Assembly (NCBI GenBank): GCA_016235585.1
Contig: JACRJY010000098.1
Span: 8,810-72,809 of the forward strand
Length of the DNA stretch: 64,000 bases
Source: Verrucomicrobiota bacterium
GTDB lineage: Bacteria > Verrucomicrobiota > Verrucomicrobiia > Limisphaerales > JACRJY01
Reading direction: 5' to 3'
Of this stretch, positions 3,268-47,290 are shown piece after piece. How positions within the stretch are numbered: position 1 is the first letter of the stretch; every line of letters begins with the position of its first letter. The notes below the pieces were generated by a model, which was given only the letters and a program-made list of their open reading frames with translations, ran no database searches and had not been told where the DNA came from. Both the position numbers and the translations under genes were made by a program.

Positions 3268-5859
3268 ATGCAAACACTCCTCCGTCCCGCGCTCTTTTCG
3301 CTCGCCTTGAGCATCGCCACTTGTTTTCAACTCGCCGCCGCGCCCGAGGCGTTTGAAATCGGGCCGGACAACAAGGATCAGCTCCCGCGCGGCAAGGAGG
3401 CCGACGGCATCATCGGCGACTTCGTGCTGCGGAACCGCCGCGTCGAGGCTGTCATCTCGGCGAATGTGCCGCTGCGCCGCGCGAACATGAGCACCTTCTA
3501 CGGCACCAACGGTGTCACGCCCGGCTGCCTCTATGACCTCACGCTGCGCGGCGCGAACAATGATCAGATCGTCGTCTTCACGCCGTCGGGCCAGCAGGGT
3601 TTTGTTTCCTACGTGCGCGTGGCGAAGGACGGGCGCGACGGCGAGGCGGTGATCGAGACGGTCATTTCCGCCGCGATGAACAACGGCGTCTACAAGCGGC
3701 ACGAATACCGTTTGCGCGACGACTGGCAGGGATTGCTCATCGTCACCACGATGCGGAACGACGGCAAGACCGCGCGCAAGGGCACGGTGGAGGATCGCTG
3801 GACGAAGTTCGCGACCAACGGCGTCGCGGGCGACATCACCTGGGCCGATGCCGAAGACCCGGCGGACAAATGCGGCTACGCCTACGCGTGGATCGAGCGC
3901 GACGGGATGAAAGCGCCGCCGAAGGAAATTGAAATCAAGCCGGGCGAGCAAATTTCCTTCGCACGGTTTCTTGCGGTCGGCACCTCGCCGGCGGAGGCGC
4001 TTGGTGTCGTCGCGGCGCAGCGGGGTGCGGTTGGATATGTTTCCGCAAAAATCACAAATCCGCAGCGCGAGCCCCTTCCGACTGTGCGGGTTTGGTTTTC
4101 CATCAGCGGAAAAAATATCGTCGCTTACCCCGACGCTCTGGGAAAATTCAAAATTCAGTTGCCGCCGGACAGTTATGAAGTGGAAGTAGAAGATTTTGGT
4201 GCCAAACTGCCGAAATTCATTCGCACGGTGAAGGTCGGCGAGGAAGAAAAAATCTCTGTCACAATGTTCTCCGCTCCGGCCATCTTTTTTGATATCCGCG
4301 ATGAGTTGGGCAAAAGCATCCCTTGCAAGGTTCAATTCAAAGGCATCGACGGCACACCTTCGCCGCAGCTCGGCCCGCAGAACCGTGCGCACGGCTGCGT
4401 GGATCAGTATCATTCCGAGCGCGGCGATTTCCGCGTAAATGTGCCGGAAGGCGAATACGAAGTCGTGGTTACGCACGGCATCGAGTTCAGCCACCTCAAG
4501 CAACGCGTGAGGGCGGGAAGACATATTGGTGCTTCTGTTAAAGGCACACTAATACGTCTCGTGGACACGCGCGGCTGGGTCAGCGCGGATTATCACAACC
4601 ACTCCACGCCCAGCGGCGACAACACCTGCGGCACCGACGACCGCATCATCAACCTCGCCGCCGAGCACATCGAGTTCGCGCCGACGACGGAGCACAACCG
4701 GCTCTACGACTGGCGTCCGCACATCGAGCGGCTCGGCCTTGCGCGCGAAATCCAGACCGTCAGCGGCATGGAACTCACCGGCGGCGGCGCGCACTTCAAT
4801 TCATTTCCGTTCACGCCGGAGCCGTTCACGCAGGACAACGGCGCGCCGGTGTGGAGCAAAGACCCGCGCATCACCGCTGTCACGCTGCGGAATCATCAGG
4901 GCGAAAATCCCGACCGCTGGATTCAGATCAACCATCCCGACATGGTGGAGAACTTCATTGACCGTGACGGCGACGGGCGCGAGGACGGCGGCTTTCTCGG
5001 TTTGCCGTCGTTGATTGACGGCGTGGAGACGCAGAACTACAGCACGGCGCAGATTCTCTCCAAAGCGCCGTTCACGATTACGCGCGACATTCGCACGGGC
5101 AAGGAGTCGGTGAACTATCTGCGTGAGTTCATCTGGCTGCAATTGCTCAATCGCGGCCATCGCTACTGGGGCATGGCGGTGTGCGACGCGCACACGGTCT
5201 ATGGCAACGGCGTCGGCGGCTGGCGGATGTATATGCCCAGTTCCACGGACGAACCGGCGCTGATTGACTGGAAGGAAAATTCCCGCAACGCGCGCGCGGG
5301 CCGGAGCATTCTCACCAGCGGGCCGTTCCTCGAAGTGAAGACCGAGGACGGCACGCTCGCTGGCGGACAGACGCGCGCCATCGGCGGCGGCGTGAAGCTG
5401 CGCGTGAAAGTGCAGTGCACGGACTGGCTGGACATTGACCGCGTGCAGGTGCTGGTGAACGGGCGGCAGCGCGCCGACTTGAATTTCACGCGCGCGTCGC
5501 ACCCGGAGTTTTTTCAGAATGGCGTGGTGAAGTTTGACCGCGAGATCACCGTGCCGTTGAGCCAGGACAGCCATCTCATCGTCGTCGCCATCGGCGAAAA
5601 CTCCGATCTCTCGATTGGTTACGGCACGAGCGGTCAGGCGAAGATCAAGCCGTGCGCCTACAACAATCCCATCTTCGTGGACGTGGACGGCGGCGGCTTC
5701 ACGCCGAACGGCGACACGCTCGGCTGGCCATTGCCGGTGAAAAAGCTGAACGTGGACGAGGTAAAGAAGCAGCTCGCCAACGCCGACGCCAAACCGGCGG
5801 CCCCCGCGTCCGCGCCGGAAATCAAGAAGAGCACGAAGGCTGGCAAGGCGAAGAAGTGA
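3268..5859 (+). CDS. secreted PHP-fold (CehA/McbA-like) metal-dependent hydrolase family protein
   Basis: The Met at 3268 gives the signal peptide MQTLLRPALFSLALSIATCFQLAAA. His/Asp clusters ADYHNHSTPSGDN, TTEHN, INHPD and CDAH are typical of PHP/CehA-McbA hydrolases. Lys-rich C-terminal tail. Confidence 0.6.
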   Translation: MQTLLRPALFSLALSIATCFQLAAAPEAFEIGPDNKDQLPRGKEADGIIGDFVLRNRRVEAVISANVPLRRANMSTFYGTNGVTPGCLYDLTLRGANNDQIVVFTPSGQQGFVSYVRVAKDGRDGEAVIETVISAAMNNGVYKRHEYRLRDDWQGLLIVTTMRNDGKTARKGTVEDRWTKFATNGVAGDITWADAEDPADKCGYAYAWIERDGMKAPPKEIEIKPGEQISFARFLAVGTSPAEALGVVAAQRGAVGYVSAKITNPQREPLPTVRVWFSISGKNIVAYPDALGKFKIQLPPDSYEVEVEDFGAKLPKFIRTVKVGEEEKISVTMFSAPAIFFDIRDELGKSIPCKVQFKGIDGTPSPQLGPQNRAHGCVDQYHSERGDFRVNVPEGEYEVVVTHGIEFSHLKQRVRAGRHIGASVKGTLIRLVDTRGWVSADYHNHSTPSGDNTCGTDDRIINLAAEHIEFAPTTEHNRLYDWRPHIERLGLAREIQTVSGMELTGGGAHFNSFPFTPEPFTQDNGAPVWSKDPRITAVTLRNHQGENPDRWIQINHPDMVENFIDRDGDGREDGGFLGLPSLIDGVETQNYSTAQILSKAPFTITRDIRTGKESVNYLREFIWLQLLNRGHRYWGMAVCDAHTVYGNGVGGWRMYMPSSTDEPALIDWKENSRNARAGRSILTSGPFLEVKTEDGTLAGGQTRAIGGGVKLRVKVQCTDWLDIDRVQVLVNGRQRADLNFTRASHPEFFQNGVVKFDREITVPLSQDSHLIVVAIGENSDLSIGYGTSGQAKIKPCAYNNPIFVDVDGGGFTPNGDTLGWPLPVKKLNVDEVKKQLANADAKPAAPASAPEIKKSTKAGKAKK

Positions 5860-11551: not shown

Positions 11552-12871
11552 ATGACTCGAACCGCGCTGGCGGCCGCCCTGTTTGCCGTGGTCAGCGCGG
11601 CCCCGGCGGCGGCCTCCTACAGCGCCACGCGCCTGGCGAACGGGAAGTTTGATCTGGAATTTAGCGGCCTCGGCGCGGCGCAATACGTCATCCAGGCCAC
11701 GACCAACTTCACCGCGTGGACGGATCTCGGCTTCATCCAGCCGACGAACGGCGCGCTGCGGTTCGTGGACAATGGCGCGACCAACCTGCCGCTGCGCTTC
11801 TACCGCGTCGTGAGCAACCTCGACTTGCTGACGCTCTCCGGCACGGTGCGCGACTTTTATACGTCCGCGCCGGTGACGAACGCCGCCGTCAGCACCACGC
11901 TGGATCCGCGCACGGCCGTCTCGGACGGCAACGGGCTGTTCTCCATCGTCACCACCATTCCGGCGACGAACAGCAGTTTCACCTACACCATCAACGTCTC
12001 GGCCGGCGGCTACAACTCCGCGAGCCTCTCCGGCCCGTGGCCCGTTCACCTGCAAAACCTCGACGTGCGCCTCGTGCCGCCGCCGAACAACGACCATTTC
12101 GCCAACCGCATCCCGCTCACCGGCACGGCGACGAACACGAGCGCGTCGAGCCTGGGCGCGAGCAAGGAAGCCAACGAGCCGGATCATGCGGGCAACACGG
12201 GTGGCAAATCCGTCTGGTGGAGATGGACGGCACCCGCAGCCGGCGAGGTCACGATTGACACCGTGGGCAGCGACTTCGACACGGTGCTGGCGGTCTATCA
12301 AGGCACCGCCCTTTCCAACTTGAGCACGAACGAGGTGGCCAGCAGCGACGACACCCTGACGAACAACGCGAGCGCAGTCACCTTCACCACCGTCGCCGGG
12401 CACGTGTATCAGATTGCCGTGGATGGCCTCTTCGGCGCGGCGGGCACGGTGCAGTTGAACCTGATCTTCCACGGGCCGCCCGCGAACGATAAGTTCATCA
12501 ACCGCATCCTGCTCACGGGGACGAATGTTTCCGTGACGGGGGAAAATTTCGTCGCCACCAAGGACACGGGCGAGCCGGCCCATTGGGGGGCTGAATCGGG
12601 CGGCAAATCCGTCTGGTGGTCGTGGACAGCACCCGCCTCCGGGCCGGTGACGATCAGCACGGTGGGCAGCGATTTTGACACGGTGCTCGCGGTCTACACT
12701 GGCACGGCGGTGGGCAGCCTCACGCTGAAGGCCAACGATGACAGCACGGGCGACGGAGGCACGGGAGAAGTCACCTTCAACGCAGAGGAGAGCAGGACAT
12801 ACCAGATCGCCGTGGACGGTTTCAGCGCCACGGACGCCGGGAACATCGTGCTGACGATCACCCAGCCGTGA
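11552..12871 (+). CDS. secreted repeat protein (N-terminal RFYR beta-sandwich module, carboxypeptidase-regulatory-like domain, two tandem ~125-aa repeats)
   Basis: The Met at 11552 gives the signal MTRTALAAALFAVVSAAPAAA. Two copies of ND-x-F-x-NRI-x-LTG ... EP-x-H ... GGKSVWW-x-WTAP ... GSDFDTVLAVY-x-GT ... YQIAVDG. Confidence 0.65.
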   Translation: MTRTALAAALFAVVSAAPAAASYSATRLANGKFDLEFSGLGAAQYVIQATTNFTAWTDLGFIQPTNGALRFVDNGATNLPLRFYRVVSNLDLLTLSGTVRDFYTSAPVTNAAVSTTLDPRTAVSDGNGLFSIVTTIPATNSSFTYTINVSAGGYNSASLSGPWPVHLQNLDVRLVPPPNNDHFANRIPLTGTATNTSASSLGASKEANEPDHAGNTGGKSVWWRWTAPAAGEVTIDTVGSDFDTVLAVYQGTALSNLSTNEVASSDDTLTNNASAVTFTTVAGHVYQIAVDGLFGAAGTVQLNLIFHGPPANDKFINRILLTGTNVSVTGENFVATKDTGEPAHWGAESGGKSVWWSWTAPASGPVTISTVGSDFDTVLAVYTGTAVGSLTLKANDDSTGDGGTGEVTFNAEESRTYQIAVDGFSATDAGNIVLTITQP

Positions 12872-12911
12872 CAAGGCGGTGCGGTCTCGCTTTTCCCAGC
12901 CACCGCAAGCA

Positions 12912-13205
12912 TTACTCCATGGCCGGTTCCCTCCACGCGTGGCCGCAAGATTTGCAGCGCCACTGCCTGGTTGAAAGCGCGGCCATGTTGTTCATGAAGC
13001 GAATGACCAACGCCACGGCGCAGACGGCAACCAGGACGGCACCCGCCGCCATGATCAACAGGACTCCCTTGATGCTGTTCAGTGCCAGCCCCGCCAGCAC
13101 GGCAATGGCCGTCAGCCAGAAAAACATCGTCGCAATGCGGTCGGTCATCCGAACCTGCTGAATTTTCATCCCGCCACATTTGGGGCAGGACGAGTGCCCC
13201 GGCAT
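12912..13205 (-). CDS. small membrane protein with a split zinc ribbon (CxxC - 2 TM helices - CxxC, LITAF-like topology)
   Basis: CPKCG and CKSCG knuckles flank about 55 hydrophobic residues. Start is either 13226 or 13205. The gene sits between a secreted-protein gene and dapL. Confidence 0.45.
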   Translation of the reverse strand: MPGHSSCPKCGGMKIQQVRMTDRIATMFFWLTAIAVLAGLALNSIKGVLLIMAAGAVLVAVCAVALVIRFMNNMAALSTRQWRCKSCGHAWREPAME

Positions 13206-13239
13206 TTGTGGCTGACTGGCACGCATGCTTTTTGCCGCG

Positions 13240-14478
13240 TCACCACTTCAACTCCTGCAGCCGCCGCGCTACTTCCTCCGCGTTGGCGCGGCTGTTGAAG
13301 GCGCTGATGCGGAAGTAGCCCTCGCCCTTCGCGCCGAAGCCGCTGCCCGGCGTGATGACCACGCTGGCGTCGCCGAGAATTTTGTCGAACGCCTGCCAGC
13401 TCGTGACGCCCTTCGGCGTCCGCACCCAGAGGTAGGGCGCGTTCTGCCCGCCGAAAACTTTCAAGCCCGCCTTCTTCGCGCCCGCGCGCAGCACGATGGC
13501 GTTGCCCATGTAATGGTCAATGAGCGCGCGCACCTGCTGCTTTCCTTCCGGCGAGTAGAGCGCCTCGGCGGCGCGCTGCACGATGTAGGAGACGCCGTTG
13601 AACTTGGTGCACATCCGGCGGTTCCAGAGCGGATGGAGCGGCTTCATCTCGCCGGTCTTCGTCGCCGCGAGCAGCGTCTTGGGCACGACGGTGAAGCCGC
13701 AGCGCACGCCGGTGAAGCCGCCGTGCTTGGAATAGCTGCGGAACTCGATGGCACATTCACGCGCGCCGGAAATCTCGTAAATGGAATGCGGCAGCGCCGG
13801 GTCGCTGATGTAGGCCTCGTAGGCCGCGTCGAAGAGAATCACGGACTTGTGTTCCAGCGCGTATTTCACCCAAGCCTCAAGCTGTGGGCGGTTGGCCGCC
13901 GCGCCGGTCGGGTTGTTCGGTGAACAGAGATAAATCACGTCCACGTGCTTCTTCGGCGGTTCGGGGATGAAGCCGCTGCTCGGTTTGCACGGCAGATAAA
14001 CCAGTTTGCCGTAGGCGCCCGCTTCGTTCGCCGGGCCGGTGTGGCCGGCCATCACGTTCGTGTCCACATAGACGGGATACACCGGGTCGCTGATGGCGAT
14101 TTTGTTTTTCGCGCCGAGGATGTCGAGGATGCTGCCGGTGTCGCACTTGGTGCCGTCGCTGACGAAAATTTCATCGTCGGCCACGTCGAGGCCGCGGCCG
14201 CGGAATTCATTTTGCGCGATGGCGGCGCGCAGCCACTCGTAGCCCTGCTCCGGGCCGTAGCCGTGAAAAGTTTCGCGCGCACCCATGTCATCCACGGCCT
14301 TGTGCAGTGCGGCGATGACGGCGGGCGGCAGCGGCTCGGTCACGTCGCCGATGCCGCAGCGGATGAGGCGCTGGGCCGCGTCGGGGTTGGCTTCGCAAAA
14401 GGCCTTCACGCGCCGGCCGATTTCAGGGAAGAGGTAGCCGGCTTTGAGTTTGAGGTAATTGTCGTTGAGCAGGGCCAT
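13240..14478 (-). CDS. dapL: LL-diaminopimelate aminotransferase
   Basis: Met at 14478. N-terminus [24 protein letters not shown], and the PLP-lysine motif [14 protein letters not shown]. About 412 aa, collinear with DapL. Confidence 0.9.
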
Positions 14479-41507: not shown

Positions 41508-42476
41508 ATGATTCGCCATTGCCTTTTGCTTTTTGCAATTGCTTGGTCTGCGTGGAGCGCGCTTCCCGCCCAAGCCCAGCTCCGCCCCGGCGCGCTGCCC
41601 GGCAAGGGCAAGGGCGCGGGCCGCCCGCAAATCGTCCGCGAGTTTCCGAACGTCACCCTCACGACGAACTGGGTGAAAAATCCCACGACCGGCGCGGAGA
41701 TTTTCACGCTCGTGCTCACGCCAAAAAACAAGAGCGGCGAGAAACTCCCCGCGCTCGTCCTGTGCCCCGGCGGCAACGGCCACAGCATTCTGTTCTTGAG
41801 CGGCCAGGGCATGGCGCAGCAGCTCGCGGAGATGGGCTTCGCCGCCGTGGTGTTCGATCCTGAAGGCCGCGGGCAGAGCCAGGGCGTCGAGGATTACTGC
41901 GGCTTCAAGCATCAGGACGGGCTGGCGGCGATGGTGCGCTGGGTGGCGCGGCAGCCGGGCATTGACTCGGAGCGCATCGGCCTTTGCTCGAATTCCTACG
42001 GCGTGACGATGGCCACGGGCGCGCTCGCGCGGCACCCCGATTTGCCGGCGCGGTTCCTGATTGATTGGGAAGGCCCGATGGATCGCAACGACACCGGCGG
42101 CTGCGACCCGGCCAAGCCGGGCATGGGCGGCCATTTGAAAAGCGTGGCGAAGTGCGACGATGAAAATTTCTGGCGCGAACGCGAGGCGGTGAAGTTCGTC
42201 GGCCGGCTGCGCGTGCCGTATCAGCGCATCCAGTCGGAGAAGGATCACGTGCAGCGCGACAACCATCACGCCGTCGCGATGGTCAATGCCGCGCTGGCCG
42301 GCGGCGTGCCGGAAGTGTGGCTCAACGAGGAGTTCGTGAAGCAGCCGCTCGACCTGAAGAACCCGCCCAAGTGGCTGCCCGACGCCGACGCGGATCGCCG
42401 CAACGCCGATTACTACGCCCGCTACGCCAAGGAGATGTTCAAGTATTCGCCGAAGCCGAAGGCAAAGACTTTTTAG
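41508..42476 (+). CDS. secreted alpha/beta hydrolase fold protein
   Basis: Starts 1 nt after the preceding stop. Signal MIRHCLLLFAIAWSAWSALPAQA. LCPGGNGH and the nucleophile-elbow-like CSNSYG. Confidence 0.6.
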   Translation: MIRHCLLLFAIAWSAWSALPAQAQLRPGALPGKGKGAGRPQIVREFPNVTLTTNWVKNPTTGAEIFTLVLTPKNKSGEKLPALVLCPGGNGHSILFLSGQGMAQQLAEMGFAAVVFDPEGRGQSQGVEDYCGFKHQDGLAAMVRWVARQPGIDSERIGLCSNSYGVTMATGALARHPDLPARFLIDWEGPMDRNDTGGCDPAKPGMGGHLKSVAKCDDENFWREREAVKFVGRLRVPYQRIQSEKDHVQRDNHHAVAMVNAALAGGVPEVWLNEEFVKQPLDLKNPPKWLPDADADRRNADYYARYAKEMFKYSPKPKAKTF

Positions 42477-42530
42477 CCACGGATGAAACACGGACGCGGG
42501 GCGAGCCGCCGGCTTGAACTTCTACCGTCT

Positions 42531-43562
42531 TCATTTGGCCTTCTTCCTCCGCGTTCCCGGTGTTTCCGGGCGAGTTCCTTCCAACCGCTTGATCTCCCGG
42601 TCGAAGTCCGAAACGTATTCCGCGTCCTGCCGCTGGCGATAGACCTCGAATTCCCCCTCGGCCTTGAGCTTCGCCTCCAATGCGCTCACCTTGCCCTTGT
42701 CCTGGAGAATCGGATAGTTCGACAGCTCAAGAAAGCTGTGCAGGAATTTCACCCAGTCCGCCATCTTCATCAGGATGCCGCGCTCGGCCCGGTTCTCCGC
42801 GAGGTCAAGATAGGCGGAAACGATGCGGTTCAACTCCTTCACATGAGCCTCGCTCAAGTAGTTCTTCGCCACCGTCACGTCCGACTTCAAAATCTTCCCG
42901 CCCGGCGCGTGCTTCCACGTCGTCAGCCCCATGTAAACCTTCGTCGCATCGGCGGCGGCGTAGATCAGTTCCGCCGCCGTCTGGCCCGTGATCGCCCAGT
43001 GCAGCTTGTTCTGCACCGTGGCGAAGAACTCTTTTGTCATTGGCGCGTCCGCGTTGTAATCCAGCGACAGGGCGTAGATGTCCGTGATCTTCTGGTAAAA
43101 GCGCCGCTCGCTGGCCCGGATTTCCCGGATGCGCTCCAGCAGTTCGTCGAAGTAATCCTTGCCGAAGACCTGCTTGCCCTGCTTCAGCCGCTCGTCATCC
43201 AGCACGAAGCCCTTGATGATGAACTCGCGCAATGTCTTCGTGGCCCAGATGCGGAACTGCGTGGCCTGAAAGCTGTTCACCCGGTAGCCGACGGCGATGA
43301 TGGCGTCGAGGTTGTAGTATTTGGCGGAGTAAGTTTTCCCGTCCCCGGCAGTATGTTCCAAAATGGAACATACTGAATCTTCCGCCAGTTCCCCGGTGGA
43401 GAAGATGTTCAACAAGTGCTTCGTGATGGCTGGGCGCTGAACGCCGAACAACTCCGCCAACGCCTTTTGCGTCAGCCAGACCGTCTCGTCCTTGAAAAAC
43501 ACGTCCACCTTCACCGCCCCGTCCGGCGCGGTGTAGAGCAGGAATTGGTTTTGGGCGCTCAT
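42531..43562 (-). CDS. rhuM: RhuM family virulence/defence-island protein
   Basis: Near-textbook RhuM N-terminus (VWLTQKALAELFGVQRPAITKHLLNIFSTGEL ... KYYNLDAIIAVGYRVNSFQATQFRIWATKTLREFIIKGFVLDDERLK). Confidence 0.85.
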   Translation of the reverse strand: MSAQNQFLLYTAPDGAVKVDVFFKDETVWLTQKALAELFGVQRPAITKHLLNIFSTGELAEDSVCSILEHTAGDGKTYSAKYYNLDAIIAVGYRVNSFQATQFRIWATKTLREFIIKGFVLDDERLKQGKQVFGKDYFDELLERIREIRASERRFYQKITDIYALSLDYNADAPMTKEFFATVQNKLHWAITGQTAAELIYAAADATKVYMGLTTWKHAPGGKILKSDVTVAKNYLSEAHVKELNRIVSAYLDLAENRAERGILMKMADWVKFLHSFLELSNYPILQDKGKVSALEAKLKAEGEFEVYRQRQDAEYVSDFDREIKRLEGTRPETPGTRRKKAK

Positions 43563-43672
43563 GGGGTTTGAACTTCCACCTGCTTCATTCTGCCTTCTTC
43601 GTTTTGCGAGTGGCCGTCATGCCGCAGGATGTTGCAAAGTGCCGGAGATTTTGGACGAGGGCGTGTGATTAC

Positions 43673-44776
43673 TCACGTTTTACCTCCATTCAAGCCGGTG
43701 ACATGAAGCAACGTGCCGTCTGCGAAAAGACTGTTTATCTCGGTCTCCGACTCGGTCAACTTCGTCGCTAGTGGCTGTGCAACTGCCTCGAACCTGACAC
43801 CTGCCTCCAACGCCTGCCGCTGCACGCCAAAGAACACTTTGATTTTCGACACCGCACTTTCAGATGAGCGGCCAAGGAACTCGGAATCATGATAGCGGTG
43901 AGTTTCGAGAGCATTCGGTTGAGATTCCTCAACGAACTCTGCTCGCAGCTCTTCTTGAAGGCCCTCGATGCGACGAGTTCTAGCGACAGAAGCTGCACCA
44001 GCATCATCAATGCGATGCTTCTCCCGTAGCCGCTGTGACAACGTGGACACATAGTCCTTCGCGGTCTGCGGAAGACCGGCAAATTGAAGCACCTTCTCGA
44101 AGTGAAGAAGCCGGGATGTTTCTGCATCCGCCTTCACTTCTTCAGGTAGCGCGGGCGGATCGACGACAAAAGAAGTGCTTGGAAAAAACCGCTCGTCCGC
44201 GCTCAGGTAGGAGACGATAGCAATCTTCGCCTCGGCAGTTTCAGGGTAACTTTTTACCTGGCTCAGGGCTTTCGACATCGTCTTTTCGACCGTCTGCATT
44301 TTCGTCGTTCCTTTTGCCTCAAACAGGTATCGCTGGCTTGTGGCCGTGTAGCCTTGGAAGTCAGGTCGCTTCTTGCTGAGTTTCGAGTTTTGAGGAATCT
44401 GGCTGACCGATTTCCAACTCAAGCCAAATACTTCGACCATGAAGAAAGCCGCGAGGGCAACGCCGAGGTCTTCTGATAGCCTTCGGCGCGAATCTGAATT
44501 TGCCCCGGCTGGGACGTTGATGCCGCCAACAGCATCCGCACGTTCAAAGAATGTTCGGACCGTCGAGAGATAGAGCGTCAAGTCACTGACAAATCGTTGC
44601 GGTTGCTCACCGAGGAGAAGATAGGCGTGCGTAAACACTGCCGGATTTATCGCCACGAACCGGACATTCTCTGGGAGCTGTGACGAATTGAGGAGGCGAC
44701 TGGCTCCCGCTGCGCTCGCTGCGCGTGCGAGTGTTGGCGCATCAATGCGGTATGGGTGATGGAAAGGCGTGTTCAT
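43673..44776 (-). CDS. uncharacterised protein with PD-(D/E)xK nuclease-like core and unknown helical C-terminal domain
   Basis: 367 aa, AT-richer. E102-D-L-G ... P138-D-F ... F-E153-A-K155-G-T, followed by a beta-strand (IAIVSY). The last ~190 aa carry no motif I recognise. Confidence 0.6.
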   Translation of the reverse strand: MNTPFHHPYRIDAPTLARAASAAGASRLLNSSQLPENVRFVAINPAVFTHAYLLLGEQPQRFVSDLTLYLSTVRTFFERADAVGGINVPAGANSDSRRRLSEDLGVALAAFFMVEVFGLSWKSVSQIPQNSKLSKKRPDFQGYTATSQRYLFEAKGTTKMQTVEKTMSKALSQVKSYPETAEAKIAIVSYLSADERFFPSTSFVVDPPALPEEVKADAETSRLLHFEKVLQFAGLPQTAKDYVSTLSQRLREKHRIDDAGAASVARTRRIEGLQEELRAEFVEESQPNALETHRYHDSEFLGRSSESAVSKIKVFFGVQRQALEAGVRFEAVAQPLATKLTESETEINSLFADGTLLHVTGLNGGKT

Positions 44777-45276
44777 GGTAGGTTAAAAAGGATGCTGACA
44801 AGCTGCTCCAAACTCTGTTTTTTTGATTCGGCATCCCTGATTCTGATGCTCCGATACCCCTCTCGCGGAACTTTCACGCCTTTCTTCTTTTTCGTGGCCT
44901 GCGGGAACAGCGTGAGGTCTCGCATCGGCGCGATGCCGCGTCCACCCATCAAATGGTAGTGCGTGGGTTTGAGCGTTTCGCGGTCGTAGCAAATCCAGAC
45001 GACGCAGCCACCGACGATGCCGCTCAACGACTCTGCGACTGAATAGGAGTTGTTCGTCGTAGCCTTTGCCAGAGTCTTCATCTGGATTTGGCGTGTCACG
45101 GTTCGGAACGTCATCACAAGGTCGACCCCGGCATCGTCCACTTCCGACCGCAACACCGTCACCAACTCCGGCTCTCGGCGAAGCAGGAGAAAGCGCGAGA
45201 CATCGTAGATGAAGCGATGCCGCATCAAGTTCTCGATGTAGGACGAGTTTTCAGCGAGGAAGTCGGAGGAAATCAT
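44773..45276 (-). CDS. uncharacterised DUF4365-like PD-(D/E)xK protein
   Basis: The Met at 45276 overlaps the hsdS-remnant stop by ATGA, and the gene's own stop overlaps the next ATG by ATGA. Motifs: E15, D47-D-A-G-V-D52, Q65-M-K67. Confidence 0.55.
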   Translation of the reverse strand: MISSDFLAENSSYIENLMRHRFIYDVSRFLLLRREPELVTVLRSEVDDAGVDLVMTFRTVTRQIQMKTLAKATTNNSYSVAESLSGIVGGCVVWICYDRETLKPTHYHLMGGRGIAPMRDLTLFPQATKKKKGVKVPREGYRSIRIRDAESKKQSLEQLVSILFNLP

Positions 45277-45473
45277 GATGTGAGTTCTCTGGTGAAGGCT
45301 TTTTGGAAGATGGACTGGCGGAAGCGGGTGGCGCGCTGGAGGTTGGTGGACACCACCGCTTCCAACTCCACCACCACGCTCAACCGTCGCTCCACTTCCG
45401 CCACGATCCGCGCCGGCCCGGCGGAAATGTCCACGGTGGCGGCGGGGCGCAGTTGGGGCGAGGTGCAGGCCAT
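45273..45473 (-). pseudogene. hsdS: truncated Type I restriction-modification specificity subunit (HsdS) C-terminal remnant
   Basis: RIVAEVERRLSVVVELEAVVSTNLQRATRFRQSIFQKAFTRELTS matches the conserved HsdS C-terminal coiled coil (EQ-x-IV-x-x-(L/V)-(D/E) ... L ... A ... LRQSIL-x-x-AF-x-G-x-L). No target-recognition domain is left, and there is a stop 17 codons upstream of the Met. Confidence 0.55.
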
Positions 45474-45577
45474 GGTGATCGCGGAGCATGGGCGAAACCG
45501 GCTGCCGCGTCAATTCGCGTTCGGCGGCAAAACCAGAATTCACAACGGCTGTTCCCGGTGTCTCCGTGGCTTGGTGG

Positions 45578-45608
45578 TTCAAACAGGACAGGCTCGACAT
45601 CCGTCCTG
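45578..45608 (-). terminator. weak candidate terminator after leuA
   Basis: Minus strand: CAGGAC-13 nt-GTCCTG, then TTTGAA, starting 3 nt after the leuA stop. The stem is short, so confidence is low. Confidence 0.3.
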
Positions 45609-45610
45609 CG

Positions 45611-47290
45611 TCATGCCCGGTTCAGCGCGCCCAACACCGCCTTGATGGAGGCCAGCTCGATGTTCGTGTCCACCGCCGCGCCCCAGCGGGTCTTGCCGTC
45701 GGCAAGTTTGATTTGGATGTAGGAAATCGCGCTCGCCTCCTCGCCCGCGCTCAAGGCGTGCTCGCGATAGTTGCTCACCTCGAACTTCGGCGCGCCGCCG
45801 GTTTGCAGCGCGTGGACGAACGCCGCGATGGGGCCGTTGCCCTTGCCGGTGAGCTTCAATTCCTGGCCGTCGCGTTTCACCGAGGCGCGGCACTGGAAAA
45901 CGCCATCCGCGCCGTCCGCGTGGAAATGGATGAGCGACCACGGCGTCGCGCGCTCGATGTATTCCTTCCAGAACATCGCCTTCAATTCCTGACCGCTGAC
46001 CTCGCGGCCCAGCGCGTCCACGAGGTCGTTGGCGATGGGGCCAAACTCGCGCTGCATATCCTTCGGCAGCTCGATGCCGAACTCGCTTTCGAGCAGATAG
46101 GCCACGCCGCCCTTGCCGGACTGGCTGTTCACGCGGATGACCTCGCGGTATTCGCGGCCCAAGTCGCGCGGGTCAATGGTGAGGTAGGGCACGTCCCAAT
46201 GAGCGTTGAGGGTTGAGGGTTGAGGGTTGAGCGTCTTCTGCTCCCACTCGGCCAGACCCTTCTTGATGGCGTCCTGGTGCGAGCCGCTGAACGCGGTGAA
46301 GACGAGTTCGCCCGCGTAAGGCTGGCGCGGCGGAACGGTCATGCCGGTGCAGCGCTCGTAAATTTCGCGGATGCCATTGAGGTCGGAGAAGTCGAGGCGC
46401 GGGTCAATGCCGTGCATGTAGAGGTTCAGCGCGACGGTGACGATGTCGAGGTTGCCGGTGCGCTCGCCGTTGCCGAAGAGCGTGCCCTCGACGCGATCCG
46501 CACCGGCGAGCAGGCCCAGCTCGGTGGCGGCGGTGCCGGTGTTGCGGTCGTTGTGCGTGTGGAGCGACACGATGAGCGAGTCGCGGCTCTTGATGTTGGT
46601 GCAAATCCACTCAATTTGGTCGGCATAGACATTCGGCATCGCGACCTCGACCGTGTCGGGCAGGTTCAGAATCATCTTCCGCTGCGGGGTGGGCTGCCAC
46701 ACGTCCATGACGGCCTCGGAGACTTCCTTGGCGTATTCCACTTCCGTCGCGGAAAAGCTCTCGGGCGAATACTGGAGCGTCACGTCCGTGCCCTTGAGCC
46801 GGTGGAGGCGTTCTTGAATCCACTTCGCGCCGTGGACGGCGATGGCCTTGATCTCGTCCTTCGACTTGCCGAACACCACGCGACGCTGCGCGGGCGAGGT
46901 CGAGTTATACATGTGGATGACGACCCGCTTCGCGCCGACGAGCGACTGGAAGGTTTTCTCGATCAAGTCCTCGCGCGCCTGCACGAGCACCTGGATGGTC
47001 ACGTCGTCGGGAATGCGGTTCTCCTCGATGAGCCGGCGGTTGAAGGCGAACTCGGTGTTCGACGCGGACGGGAAGCCAACCTCGATTTCCTTGAAGCCGC
47101 ACTTCACGAGCGCATCGAACAGTTCGAGTTTCTGCGAGACGTTCATGGGCACGGCGAGCGCCTGGTTGCCATCGCGCAGGTCCACGCTGCACCAGAGCGG
47201 CGCGCGGGTGAGCGTGCGGGTGGGCCACTGGCGGTTCGGGAGGTGGACGCCGGGGAAGGGGCGGTATTTGGCGACGGTGTCTTTCAGCAT
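45611..47290 (-). CDS. leuA: 2-isopropylmalate synthase (long, LeuA type 2 form)
   Basis: 559 aa. WCSVDLRDGNQ, HTHNDRNTGTA and GERTGN motifs, plus the C-terminal LeuA regulatory domain. Confidence 0.92.
   Translation of the reverse strand: MLKDTVAKYRPFPGVHLPNRQWPTRTLTRAPLWCSVDLRDGNQALAVPMNVSQKLELFDALVKCGFKEIEVGFPSASNTEFAFNRRLIEENRIPDDVTIQVLVQAREDLIEKTFQSLVGAKRVVIHMYNSTSPAQRRVVFGKSKDEIKAIAVHGAKWIQERLHRLKGTDVTLQYSPESFSATEVEYAKEVSEAVMDVWQPTPQRKMILNLPDTVEVAMPNVYADQIEWICTNIKSRDSLIVSLHTHNDRNTGTAATELGLLAGADRVEGTLFGNGERTGNLDIVTVALNLYMHGIDPRLDFSDLNGIREIYERCTGMTVPPRQPYAGELVFTAFSGSHQDAIKKGLAEWEQKTLNPQPSTLNAHWDVPYLTIDPRDLGREYREVIRVNSQSGKGGVAYLLESEFGIELPKDMQREFGPIANDLVDALGREVSGQELKAMFWKEYIERATPWSLIHFHADGADGVFQCRASVKRDGQELKLTGKGNGPIAAFVHALQTGGAPKFEVSNYREHALSAGEEASAISYIQIKLADGKTRWGAAVDTNIELASIKAVLGALNRA
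46205..46232. repeat. heptanucleotide microsatellite (GTTGAGG x3 + GTTGAGC) inside leuA
   Basis: Read directly from the sequence. On the coding strand it encodes LNPQPSTLN in the variable loop between the catalytic and linker regions. Confidence 0.8.

What the first reader, a model, noticed from the sequence alone, without database searches (positions are those of the whole stretch)
43673..45276. Translationally coupled pair of uncharacterised PD-(D/E)xK-like genes nested in a decayed Type I R-M / RhuM island: candidate undescribed defence module
Two minus-strand ORFs (167 aa, 44773-45276; 367 aa, 43673-44776) overlap each other by ATGA. The first also overlaps, by ATGA, the stop of a truncated hsdS remnant, so the pair was once co-translated behind a Type I specificity gene. 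A RhuM-family gene follows. Both genes are visibly AT-richer than the flanking core genes. The 167-aa protein shows E15 ... D47-D-A-G-V-D52 ... Q65-M-K67, a DUF4365-like restriction-endonuclease core. The 367-aa protein shows E102-D-L-G ... P138-D-F ... F-E153-A-K155-G-T, then a ~190-aa helical region I cannot assign. No ATPase/helicase, methylase, TIR, Sir2, or kinase partner is present. I cannot map the pair onto any named two-gene system I know, such as Hachiman, Shedu, Gabija or Kiwa. Cargo inserted between hsdS and rhuM or hsdR is a classic defence-island context.
Basis: partly seen in the sequence, partly recalled or inferred. Interest (0 to 1): 0.78.

Follow-up and report, generated by a model that had tools for sequence, protein, structure and literature searches.

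The report
Nuclease genes in dead restriction operon
Two intact, uncharacterised nuclease-like genes sit in the wreck of a Type I restriction-modification operon, but they are two separate accessory genes that happen to be neighbours here, not a co-evolved two-gene defence system.

Summary
On the minus strand lie a 66-aa hsdS tail, gene A (167 aa, 44773-45276), gene B (367 aa, 43673-44776) and rhuM. The first three are joined by ATGA overlaps. GC content is lower than in the flanking genes.

The 1.8-kb block is collinear with hsdR-hsdS-A-B-hsdM operons in metagenomes, so it is a relic of such an operon.

A and B are not an obligate pair. Close relatives of A always overlap the hsdS stop. They are followed by B, a B remnant, CBASS, other cargo, or hsdM directly. 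B occurs without A in about 15 of 18 distinct contexts: 9 are Type I-embedded, 3 are other defence islands, and the rest are mobile elements, Nostoc/cyanobacterial or unassigned contexts.

A is a small PD-(D/E)xK endonuclease of the PDDEXK_5 (I-Ssp6803I-like) kind, not DUF4365. B is a rare family with no Pfam, PADLOC, PDB or BFVD match. It has an invariant E..PD..ExK core in the canonical predicted topology.

Both genes are best read as new "embedded" defence candidates of a known kind (guilt-by-embedding). Function is untested. Interest is moderate.

The parts
45427..45466 (-). Possible 40-60-nt relic of an internal hsdR segment, fused to the hsdS tail (deletion scar). Weak evidence.
   Evidence: blastn matches to internal hsdR of L012 (45407-45466, 81.7%, E 2e-9) and of L013/L026 (45427-45466, E 2e-3).
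45273..45473 (-). Truncated hsdS remnant ORF of 66 aa. True hsdS homology covers 45279..45423, which is the last ~45-48 codons of a ~455-500-aa specificity subunit.
   Evidence: PADLOC Specificity_I E 3e-9. Local hsdS HMM positions 437-481 of 483. 87% nt identity to hsdS 3' ends of L001, L025 and L028, starting at 45423.
44773..45276 (-). Gene A, 167 aa: a small PD-(D/E)xK (PDDEXK_5-like) endonuclease-fold protein. Its start overlaps the hsdS-remnant stop (ATGA).
   Evidence: ORF and sequence. 47 homologue clusters. Invariant E15, E45, D47, G50, D52, R62, K67, plus Q65 in wider relatives. AF2 pLDDT 91. Foldseek top hits are all PD-(D/E)xK nucleases. Pfam PDDEXK_5 in 27 of 36 wider relatives, best E 9.7e-6. 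dN/dS 0.06-0.26.
43673..44776 (-). Gene B, 367 aa: a rare multi-domain protein. It has an N-terminal domain (1-78), a PD-(D/E)xK-like core (~94-205; E102, D139, E153-x-K155), three long helices (218-284) and a C-terminal beta domain (291-360). Its start overlaps the A stop (ATGA).
   Evidence: ORF and sequence. 66 homologue clusters. 207 representatives among 1.84e9 proteins. Invariant motif. AF2 pLDDT 84, pTM 0.86, with alpha-beta-beta-beta-alpha-beta around the motif. Only sub-threshold Pfam hits, all to PD-(D/E)xK families. No PDB or BFVD fold match. dN/dS 0.06-0.23.
43612..43676 (-). Degenerate, frameshifted 5' stub of hsdM. A GTG start overlaps the B stop, and the reading frame closes after 19 codons.
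   Evidence: Collinear with L001 9101-9167 and with hsdM starts of L004, L012, L013 and L017. Homology ends at 43612. Alignment A5 shows the indels.
42531..43562 (-). rhuM (343 aa), a further embedded-type cargo gene. No hsdM follows it.
   Evidence: Pfam Virulence_RhuM E 2e-110. PADLOC PDC-S05 E 6e-149. No hsdM or hsdR HMM hit anywhere in the 64-kb window.
45611..47290 (-). Upstream core gene, read as 2-isopropylmalate synthase from its translation. It marks the edge of the relic and is the likely source of read-through transcription.
   Evidence: ORF and translation. GC3 0.89 against 0.58-0.73 for B and A. No sigma-70-like promoter or terminator between it and A. The leuA assignment was not tested against a family library.

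Best explanation
What is shown. The window carries a 1.8-kb relic (43612-45423) of a Type I R-M operon of the form hsdR-hsdS-A-B-hsdM. hsdR, about 90% of hsdS, and hsdM have been deleted. Two intact accessory genes and rhuM survive between core genes. A and B are independent elements, not a two-component system.

Gene A. A is a small PDDEXK_5-type (I-Ssp6803I-like) PD-(D/E)xK endonuclease-fold protein. In one lineage of Type I operons, seen in Verrucomicrobia-type metagenome contigs, it is fixed directly behind hsdS and translationally coupled to it.

Gene B. B is a separate single-gene cargo. It occupies the variable slot between hsdS(/A) and hsdM, and it also turns up in other defence islands and mobile elements.

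What is inferred. B is a stand-alone Mg-dependent DNA endonuclease that serves as a defence effector. E102, D139, E153 and K155 would form the active site, and the N- and C-terminal domains would give target recognition or autoinhibition. It would act without A and without the R-M enzyme. A would be a second, independently acting sequence-, structure- or modification-specific endonuclease co-expressed with HsdS.

How the slot turns over (inferred). Cargo appears to be exchanged by homologous recombination at the highly conserved hsdM 5' head and hsdS 3' tail. That would explain why stubs of exactly those segments flank A-B in this window.
For: Relic structure:
- blastn collinearity of 43612-45423 with L001 7354-9167 at 83.5%.
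- Junction mapping and the hsdM-head alignment.
- No hsdR or hsdM HMM hit elsewhere in the window.

Independence of A and B:
- B lies in Type I operons without A in L004, L005/L018, L009-11, L016, L017 and L020.
- B lies outside Type I systems next to DISARM-like, Druantia/HerA, HNH, ParE, relaxase or Schlafen genes, or alone in Nostoc.
- A directly follows hsdS with a 4-nt overlap and is followed by CBASS (L012), by hsdM (L013/L026), by a 45-aa B remnant plus other cargo (L028), or by other cargo (L029).
- GC3 differs between A and B (0.73 against 0.58), and window-to-L001 dS differs about two-fold (0.43 against 0.95).
- hhalign finds no A-B homology.

Nuclease folds:
- A: AF2 pLDDT 91. Every leading Foldseek hit is a PD-(D/E)xK nuclease: SPARDA DREN, Hjc, HincII, EcoRV, I-Ssp6803I and DpnI, with prob up to 0.98 and E 2e-3 to 5e-2. 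PDDEXK_5 matches 27 of 36 wider relatives, best E 9.7e-6.
- B: E..PD..ExK is invariant in 51 close homologues, and D, ExK and DP stay invariant in 59 distant ones. The predicted helix-strand-strand-strand-helix-strand places the motif canonically. The recurrent sub-threshold Pfam matches (two or more members), apart from ComX (4/51), are to PD-(D/E)xK families: PDDEXK_9 6/51, HSDR_N 4/51 (best 0.0019), SduA_C 2/51. D and ExK align in register with Mrr_cat domains (hhalign P 0.005).

Selection and precedent:
- Both genes are under purifying selection across loci (dN/dS 0.06-0.26).
- Repeated hsdM 5' fragments follow each cargo cassette in L024/L025.
- Embedding in Type I R-M is a published predictor of defence function (bioRxiv 10.1101/2024.01.29.577857; TgvAB, PMC11411939).
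Against: - No functional data exist for either family.
- B's fold has no significant match in PDB or BFVD (best E 0.2 and 0.12). Its Pfam hits are all below threshold. The nuclease assignment therefore rests on motif, predicted topology and weak profile matches.
- Foldseek E-values for A are only 2e-3 to 5e-2.
- In the window the genes lack their operon promoter and no promoter-like site was found. Expression here is not shown.
- The context survey is small (~18 distinct B contexts, ~8 for close A relatives). It is drawn largely from short metagenome contigs.
- Type I genes were detected with home-made HMMs that could miss divergent systems.
- All three A+B loci keep the ATGA coupling, so a facultative interaction in this lineage is not excluded.
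Confidence: 0.6

Rival explanations
1. First reader's model. A and B form one obligate, translationally coupled two-gene defence system, with two nuclease-like subunits working together.
For: The ATGA coupling of A and B is conserved in all three loci where both occur: the window, L001-3 and L024/25. Both genes are under purifying selection. Two-gene systems embedded in Type I operons exist, for example TgvAB.
Against: B occurs without A in about 15 of 18 distinct contexts. Close A relatives occur without B in L012, L013/14/26 and L029, and in L028 with only a 45-aa B remnant. The distribution of A tracks hsdS, not B. GC3 and dS differ between the two genes.
Confidence: 0.1
2. PrrC-like guard model. 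B, and possibly A, is a latent toxic nuclease held inactive by the Type I R-M complex. It is released when a phage anti-restriction protein disables the enzyme, and the result is abortive infection.
For: Half of the distinct B contexts lie inside Type I operons. B is often translationally coupled to hsdM or hsdR/hsdS: 4-nt overlaps in L001, and immediately adjacent genes in L005 and L017. PrrC is almost exclusively Type I-embedded (bioRxiv 10.1101/2024.01.29.577857). The EcoprrI masking mechanism itself is cited from the literature on my own knowledge.
Against: B persists intact and under purifying selection where the R-M is gone: the window, and L016 where it abuts a truncated hsdR. It also occurs in islands with no Type I genes within 8-10 kb (L006, L008, L022, L023, L076, L077). 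An unguarded toxin should be counter-selected. B has no ATPase or sensor domain comparable to that of PrrC.
Confidence: 0.15
3. A is a selfish, free-standing homing-type endonuclease. It targets the conserved hsdS-3'/hsdM-5' junction of A-less operons. Repair of the break copies A and neighbouring cargo into the recipient, which makes this junction a cassette hotspot. B is a passenger.
For: A belongs to the Pfam family typified by the homing endonuclease I-Ssp6803I: PDDEXK_5 in 27 of 36 relatives, and PDB 2ost among sequence and fold hits. Its insertion point is invariant, overlapping the hsdS stop, while downstream content varies. Duplicated hsdM 5' heads flank cassettes in L024/25 and in the window. 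Distant relatives are sporadic stand-alone genes on plasmids and other mobile DNA.
Against: No target site or cleavage has been shown. Family-level similarity is weak for the window protein itself (no Pfam hit at E<=1). Many PD-(D/E)xK folds look alike. Translational coupling to hsdS and strong purifying selection fit a host-beneficial role equally well.
Confidence: 0.12
4. In this genome the block is inert debris. The ORFs are still open because the deletion is recent, but they are unexpressed and functionless. The families themselves could serve a non-defence role such as repair or recombination.
For: hsdR, hsdS and hsdM are destroyed. No promoter-like element was found. Pairwise dN/dS mostly reflects history before the deletion. 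One third of B contexts show no obvious defence neighbours.
Against: Both ORFs are full length with every family-invariant residue intact, while the flanking hsdS and hsdM stubs carry deletions and frameshifts. A second independent decayed locus (L016) also kept B intact. Read-through from leuA is possible, since no terminator lies between them.
Confidence: 0.2

Closest known systems
Genes embedded in Type I R-M operons ('guilt-by-embedding' PDC/HEC candidates, Payne et al. 2024; TgvAB of V. cholerae VPI-2; PrrC in EcoprrI)
   Same: A and B sit between hsdS and hsdM of Type I operons, co-oriented and often translationally coupled. Other cargo such as RhuM (PDC-S05), CBASS, SocA/Panacea and PIN occupies the same slot.
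   Different: Neither A nor B matches any PADLOC v2 model, including all PDC and HEC models, at E<=1. They are not GmrSD-like as TgvAB is, and they lack the ABC-ATPase of PrrC. No phenotype is known.
PDDEXK_5 / I-Ssp6803I-type small PD-(D/E)xK endonucleases (Pfam PF11645; PDB 2ost)
   Same: A is ~150-170 aa with a helix-E ... D ... QxK core. 27 of 36 wider A relatives match PF11645, best E 9.7e-6. 2ost appears in both sequence and fold searches.
   Different: The window protein itself scores below reporting level. A has an extra basic beta-rich C-terminal half (residues ~100-167). It is not intron-encoded; it is coupled to hsdS.
DUF4365 / DREN nuclease domain of SPARDA
   Same: The top Foldseek hits for A are SPARDA DREN-APAZ chains (9vx6_X E 2.3e-3, prob 0.94). 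They share the PD-(D/E)xK core.
   Different: No Pfam DUF4365 hit for A or for any relative. TM-scores are only ~0.37. There is no APAZ or Argonaute partner.
Mrr-type (Type IV) restriction endonucleases and Shedu (SduA)
   Same: These are single-polypeptide PD-(D/E)xK defence nucleases with extra sensing domains. Distant ~480-aa B relatives carry a C-terminal Mrr_cat domain. Sub-threshold SduA_C and HSDR_N hits fall on B's core.
   Different: In the ~480-aa proteins Mrr_cat is an additional domain (aa ~360-475). It is not the B-homologous part. B itself passes no Mrr_cat or SduA_C threshold. PADLOC Shedu models do not hit it. The overall fold is unmatched in PDB.

Membership tests
Obligate two-gene defence module (A+B) | The two genes co-occur and are adjacent across homologues. 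| tested here: not met
   A+B are together in 3 of ~18 distinct B contexts. Close A relatives lack B in L012, L013/14/26 and L029, and L028 keeps only a B remnant.
PD-(D/E)xK nuclease superfamily (gene A) | alpha-beta-beta-beta-alpha-beta core fold with conserved acidic residues and a lysine (E ... D ... (D/E/Q)xK). | tested here: met
   AF2 pLDDT 91. All leading Foldseek hits are PD-(D/E)xK nucleases, with weak E of 2e-3 to 5e-2. E15, D47, D52, Q65 and K67 are conserved. PDDEXK_5 matches 27 of 36 relatives.
Pfam PDDEXK_5 (PF11645) (gene A) | Score above the Pfam gathering threshold. | tested here: inconclusive
   The window protein has no hit at E<=1. Relatives match with best E 9.7e-6, and 27 of 36 match at E<=0.1. 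Gathering-score status was not listed in the aggregate output.
DUF4365 (PF14280) (gene A) | Match to the Pfam DUF4365 profile. | tested here: not met
   No DUF4365 hit for A, for 34 close relatives or for 36 wider relatives. Only a weak structural resemblance to SPARDA DREN was found.
PD-(D/E)xK nuclease superfamily (gene B) | Core fold plus a catalytic E/D ... D ... ExK motif. | tested here: inconclusive
   The motif is invariant and placed canonically in the AF2 model. There are sub-threshold hits to PDDEXK_9, HSDR_N and SduA_C and an in-register hhalign to Mrr_cat at P 0.005. No significant Foldseek or Pfam match was found.
Shedu (SduA) | DUF4263/SduA_C nuclease domain detected by Pfam or PADLOC. 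| tested here: not met
   SduA_C matches only 2 of 51 members at E>=0.028. No PADLOC Shedu hit.
Functional Type I R-M system in the window | Intact hsdR, hsdM and hsdS. | tested here: not met
   Only the last ~45 codons of hsdS and a ~65-nt frameshifted hsdM head remain. No hsdR or hsdM HMM hit occurs in the 64 kb.
PrrC/RloC-type R-M-guarded anticodon nuclease | ABC-ATPase N-domain plus a C-terminal anticodon nuclease domain, and dependence on the R-M complex. | tested here: not met
   No ATPase domain or PrrC model hit in Pfam or PADLOC. B occurs without any R-M. Dependence itself cannot be tested with these tools.
RhuM / PADLOC PDC-S05 (neighbouring gene) | Pfam Virulence_RhuM domain. | tested here: met
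   PF13310 at 368 bits against a cut-off of 33.7. PDC-S05 E 6e-149.
Any named PADLOC v2.0.0 defence system (A or B) | HMM hit to a system component. | tested here: not met
   0 families at E<=1 for both proteins. Newer DefenseFinder models could not be run.

The most novel reading that the evidence does not exclude
Gene A is a free-standing homing-type endonuclease (I-Ssp6803I family). It would target the conserved hsdS-3'/hsdM-5' junction of Type I operons. By provoking recombinational repair, it would create and maintain the cargo hotspot in which B, CBASS, RhuM and other defence genes are swapped. That would be a nuclease-driven mechanism for defence-cassette turnover inside R-M operons.
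Probability: 0.12. Interest if true: 0.75.

Novelty: new member of a known kind. Interest (0 to 1): 0.45.

Why it matters
Genes embedded in Type I R-M operons are an established, productive source of new anti-phage systems. A and B are two such families that no current catalogue (Pfam, PADLOC v2, PDB, BFVD) describes. B in particular is rare: about 200 representatives among 1.8 billion protein clusters. It is strongly tied to defence loci, predicted with good confidence, and has an overall fold with no solved or viral match. That makes it a reasonable candidate for a new single-gene nuclease defence.

The locus family also shows how the hsdS-hsdM slot turns over, with duplicated hsdM heads flanking each cassette. 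This bears on how defence islands are assembled.

The specific instance in this window is a decayed relic, so its value is as a pointer to the families and not as a working system.

Tried and rejected
- Foldseek of the B model against PDB and BFVD gave nothing significant (best E 0.2 and 0.12). Weak AdnAB and ACE1/Cas4 hits are not usable.
- PDB sequence-profile searches for A and B gave no significant hit. 2ost scored E 0.39 for A.
- A transitive link 'B core = Mrr_cat' was considered after 14 of 59 distant relatives hit Mrr_cat. It was rejected because Mrr_cat lies at aa ~360-475, outside the B-homologous region.
- hhalign of A against B, and of both against HsdR N-terminal domains, showed no relationship.
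- The idea that the L004 161-aa or L009/L020 304-aa genes upstream of B are A analogues got no support: no tblastn or HMM similarity to A and no Pfam hit.
- The promoter/terminator scan of 42300-45900 was uninformative, with 0 promoter-like sites.
- B was not found on any PLSDB plasmid. The phage collection was not searched.
- Neighbours of distant A relatives showed no recurrent partner: 141 Pfam families among 144 neighbour ORFs, with a maximum count of 3.
- The first repeat finder failed because it was given a minus-strand region. It was replaced by blastn and HMM mapping.
Full report
OBSERVATION

The minus strand of 42.5-47.3 kb reads as follows: a core gene read as 2-isopropylmalate synthase (45611-47290), a 66-aa ORF (45273-45473), gene A (167 aa, 44773-45276), gene B (367 aa, 43673-44776), a ~110-nt gap, and rhuM (42531-43562).

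The 66-aa ORF matches only the extreme C-terminus of Type I specificity subunits (PADLOC Specificity_I, E 3e-9, profile positions ~375-418 of 459; local hsdS HMM positions 437-481 of 483). RhuM is unambiguous (Pfam 2e-110; PADLOC PDC-S05).

GC drops from ~0.65 to 0.53-0.56 across the block. GC3 is 0.58 for B and 0.73 for A, against 0.89 for leuA and 0.84 for rhuM.

WHAT THE BLOCK IS

Homologues of B (66 clusters, 33-90% identity) and of A (47 clusters) exist only as unnamed hypothetical proteins without Pfam domains.

The closest B homologue on long contigs (87% identity; L001-L003) lies in a co-oriented operon in which adjacent genes overlap by 4 nt: hsdR (EcoEI_R_C type), hsdS, A, B, hsdM. 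Window 43612-45423 is collinear with L001 7354-9167 at 83.5% nt identity.

On the upstream side, homology starts 150 nt before the end of hsdS. On the downstream side, it runs ~65 nt into hsdM. The hsdM head in the window starts with a GTG that overlaps B's stop. It carries indels relative to eight intact hsdM starts and closes after 19 codons.

Just upstream of the hsdS tail, 40-60 nt weakly resemble an internal part of hsdR (E 2e-9 to L012). This suggests a deletion that joined hsdR directly to the hsdS tail. No hsdR or hsdM HMM hit occurs anywhere else in the 64-kb window.

The block is therefore a relic of an hsdR-hsdS-A-B-hsdM operon in which only the two accessory genes stayed intact, followed by rhuM.

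ARE A AND B A PAIR?

No. I combined contig look-ups, a scan of GTDB genomes with the B profile, a metagenome scan with the A profile, tblastn of both families against all loci, and a local HMM map of hsdR, hsdS, hsdM, A and B over 72 loci.

Context of B. There are about 18 distinct contexts.
- Nine are inside Type I operons. B follows A in only three of them (the window, L001-3, L024/25).
- Elsewhere in Type I operons B follows hsdR directly (L005/L018, Planctomycetota), follows hsdS directly (L017), follows unrelated 161-aa or 304-aa genes (L004, L009-11, L020 Polaromonas), or abuts a truncated hsdR (L016, a Verrucomicrobia subdivision 3 MAG).
- Three contexts are other defence islands: a large Eco57I-like methylase with DEAD/MZB and UvrD helicases (L006/7), Druantia DruA with a HerA-like protein and an HNH protein (L077), and HATPase_c_3, HNH and ParE (L076).
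- The rest are mobile-element, Nostoc/cyanobacterial or unassigned contexts: relaxase with Schlafen genes (L021), XisA-type integrase and Uma2 (L008, L022, L023, L078), and L019 (an Abditibacteriia MAG with a TPR-protein neighbour).

Context of A. Close relatives (>=75% identity) always begin 4 nt before the hsdS stop. What follows them varies:
- B;
- a 45-aa B remnant followed by two further ORFs (201 and 471 aa, not assigned to a family) (L028);
- a CD-NTase/Cap15 CBASS (L012);
- other cargo (L029);
- hsdM directly (L013/L014/L026).

Other signs of separate histories. The GC3 of A and B differs, and their synonymous divergence between the same two loci differs about two-fold. Their profiles are unrelated.

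A is therefore an hsdS-linked gene, and B is one of many interchangeable cargo genes in the slot between hsdS(/A) and hsdM.

In L024/L025 each cargo cassette is followed by its own copy of the first ~65 codons of hsdM. The same stub follows B in the window. This points to cassette exchange by recombination at the conserved hsdM head. That step is an inference.

WHAT THE PROTEINS ARE

Gene A. The AF2 model is confident (pLDDT 91, pTM 0.86). Every leading Foldseek/PDB hit is a PD-(D/E)xK nuclease: the SPARDA DREN domain, archaeal Hjc, HincII, EcoRV, I-Ssp6803I and DpnI. E-values are modest (2e-3 to 5e-2) and probabilities reach 0.98.

E15, E45, D47, G50, D52, R62 and K67 are invariant among 34 homologues. 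D47, G50, D52, R62, Q65 and K67 remain invariant when 35 distant relatives from metagenomes and plasmids are added. Of those 36 sequences, 27 match Pfam PDDEXK_5 (best E 9.7e-6) and none matches DUF4365.

The family is not. From my own knowledge, PF11645 is the family of the homing endonuclease I-Ssp6803I, which is PDB 2ost.

Distant A relatives are stand-alone genes with no recurrent neighbour. They occur on 43 PLSDB plasmids, for example next to parAB and a relaxase in pSWIT02, and next to a Bil-like ubiquitin system in pMARC5.

Gene B. The AF2 model is good (pLDDT 84, pTM 0.86). It shows four parts:
- an N-terminal alpha/beta domain (1-78);
- a long helix carrying E102-D103, then strands carrying D139 and E153-x-K155, then a helix with Q173/K175 and two more strands, which is the canonical PD-(D/E)xK order;
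- three long helices (218-284);
- a beta-rich C-terminal domain (291-360).

E102, D103, P138, D139, F140, E153, K155 and G156 are invariant in 51 homologues. The D, ExK-G and a downstream DP remain invariant in 59 much more distant relatives.

Sub-threshold Pfam matches across the family mostly fall on PD-(D/E)xK families: PDDEXK_9, HSDR_N and SduA_C. ComX (4 of 51) and scattered single-member hits are the exceptions. The core aligns in register (D with D, ExK with ExK) to bona fide Mrr_cat domains at P 0.005.

Against this, no Pfam, PADLOC, NCBIfam or PHROG model reaches significance. The whole model also has no significant structural neighbour in PDB or BFVD.

The family is rare: 207 representatives at E<=1e-3 among 1.84 billion 50%-clusters. 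A distant subgroup of ~480 aa adds a C-terminal Mrr_cat nuclease to a complete B-like module. I first took this as transitive evidence that the B core is Mrr-like and then rejected that reading, because the Mrr_cat domain lies outside the B-homologous region.

Both genes evolve under purifying selection between loci (dN/dS 0.06-0.26).

MECHANISM

Shown:
- the relic structure;
- the independence of A and B;
- the nuclease-type fold of A;
- the invariant nuclease-type motif of B;
- the defence-rich neighbourhoods.

Inferred:
- B is a self-contained DNA endonuclease effector. Its flanking domains would confer target choice or autoinhibition. It works without A or the R-M enzyme, because it persists intact where the R-M is absent or destroyed.
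- A is a second, independently acting specific endonuclease made in step with HsdS.

A stand-alone nuclease without a methylase must spare host DNA. Modification-dependent (Type IV-like), sequence- or structure-specific, or infection-triggered activity are therefore the realistic options. The Type I plus Type IV pairing has precedent in TgvAB (PMC11411939).

Rivals:
- an obligate A+B module (0.10);
- a PrrC-like nuclease guarded by the R-M complex (0.15);
- A as a homing-type selfish endonuclease that drives cassette turnover (0.12);
- inert debris in this particular genome (0.20, not exclusive of the others).

COMPARISON WITH WHAT IS KNOWN, AND NOVELTY

That multi-gene defence systems, Type I R-M among them, carry embedded defence genes is published. 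It has been turned into the PADLOC PDC/HEC models (bioRxiv 10.1101/2024.01.29.577857). RhuM in this window is one of those candidates (PDC-S05).

A and B match none of them. They fit that paper's remark that more than half of embedded genes remain unassigned and probably include rare systems.

The finding is therefore a new member (two new families) of a known kind, not a new kind of system. The instance in the window is a decayed one.

LIMITS

- Contexts come mostly from short metagenome contigs.
- Type I genes were recognised with HMMs built from four to six sequences.
- DefenseFinder could not be run.
- There is no expression or phenotype evidence.

VERDICT

Interest is 0.45. B is a credible and rare new single-gene nuclease defence candidate with an unmatched overall fold. 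A is an intriguing hsdS-coupled PDDEXK_5-type endonuclease. The proposed 'translationally coupled pair as a module' does not hold.

Noticed in passing
L024:1605-1879, 3616-3849, 4973-5215 (same in L025); window 43612-43676: Each cargo cassette downstream of hsdS-A is followed by its own copy of the first ~65 codons of hsdM. The inner copies are frameshifted. This suggests cassettes are inserted or exchanged by recombination at the conserved hsdM 5' head.
   Followed up: partly
L001:9464-9466 (also L002, L003): The hsdM of the closest A-B operon has an in-frame stop codon (...DKEQWS*LSADVKGDAYEGLLQ...) that splits HsdM_N from the N6_Mtase domain. It is seen in contigs from several samples. It could be a pseudogene or a read-through site; this is unresolved.
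   Followed up: partly
L016:9131-11104 (Verrucomicrobia subdivision 3 MAG CALBZA010000072.1): This is a second, independently decayed operon. The first ~230-260 codons of hsdR run without a stop into an intact B gene (87% identical to the window's). hsdS and A are absent, and two further ORFs (238 and 284 aa, the latter resembling the 284-aa ORF of L024) and an hsdM head lie downstream.
   Followed up: partly
L012:8501-10050 and 12161-13626: A CBASS pair (CD-NTase plus a Cap15-type effector) occupies the slot directly after gene A in a Type I operon. The hsdM of that operon is broken into at least six frame-shifted pieces.
   Followed up: no
P0180-P0243 group (about 27 proteins of 454-506 aa): Distant B relatives carry a complete B-like module, with D, ExK and DP conserved, plus an extra C-terminal Mrr_cat restriction-endonuclease domain (aa ~360-475). 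These are proteins with two nuclease-like domains and unknown context.
   Followed up: partly
L009:7036-9926 and L020:1489-4432: In proteobacterial Type I operons B is flanked by a conserved ~304-aa protein with no Pfam match upstream and a DUF4357 protein downstream. This may be an alternative local gene set around B.
   Followed up: no
L073-L075 (plasmids pSWIT02, pB1902, pMARC5) and 40 other PLSDB plasmids: Stand-alone A-like genes (~30-35% identity) occur on Burkholderia, Sphingobium, Ralstonia and Paracoccus plasmids, many of them conjugative. In pMARC5 the gene lies a few genes from a ubiquitin-like (E2/ThiF/multiubiquitin) cluster, an ImmA/IrrE peptidase and a DUF4433/macro pair.
   Followed up: partly
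window 44773-45600 (-): The A reading frame stays open for 108 codons upstream of its ATG, giving a 275-aa ORF that runs through the hsdS tail in another frame. The same artefactual extension is seen in L025 and L028. It is a high-GC open frame and not a longer A protein.
   Followed up: yes
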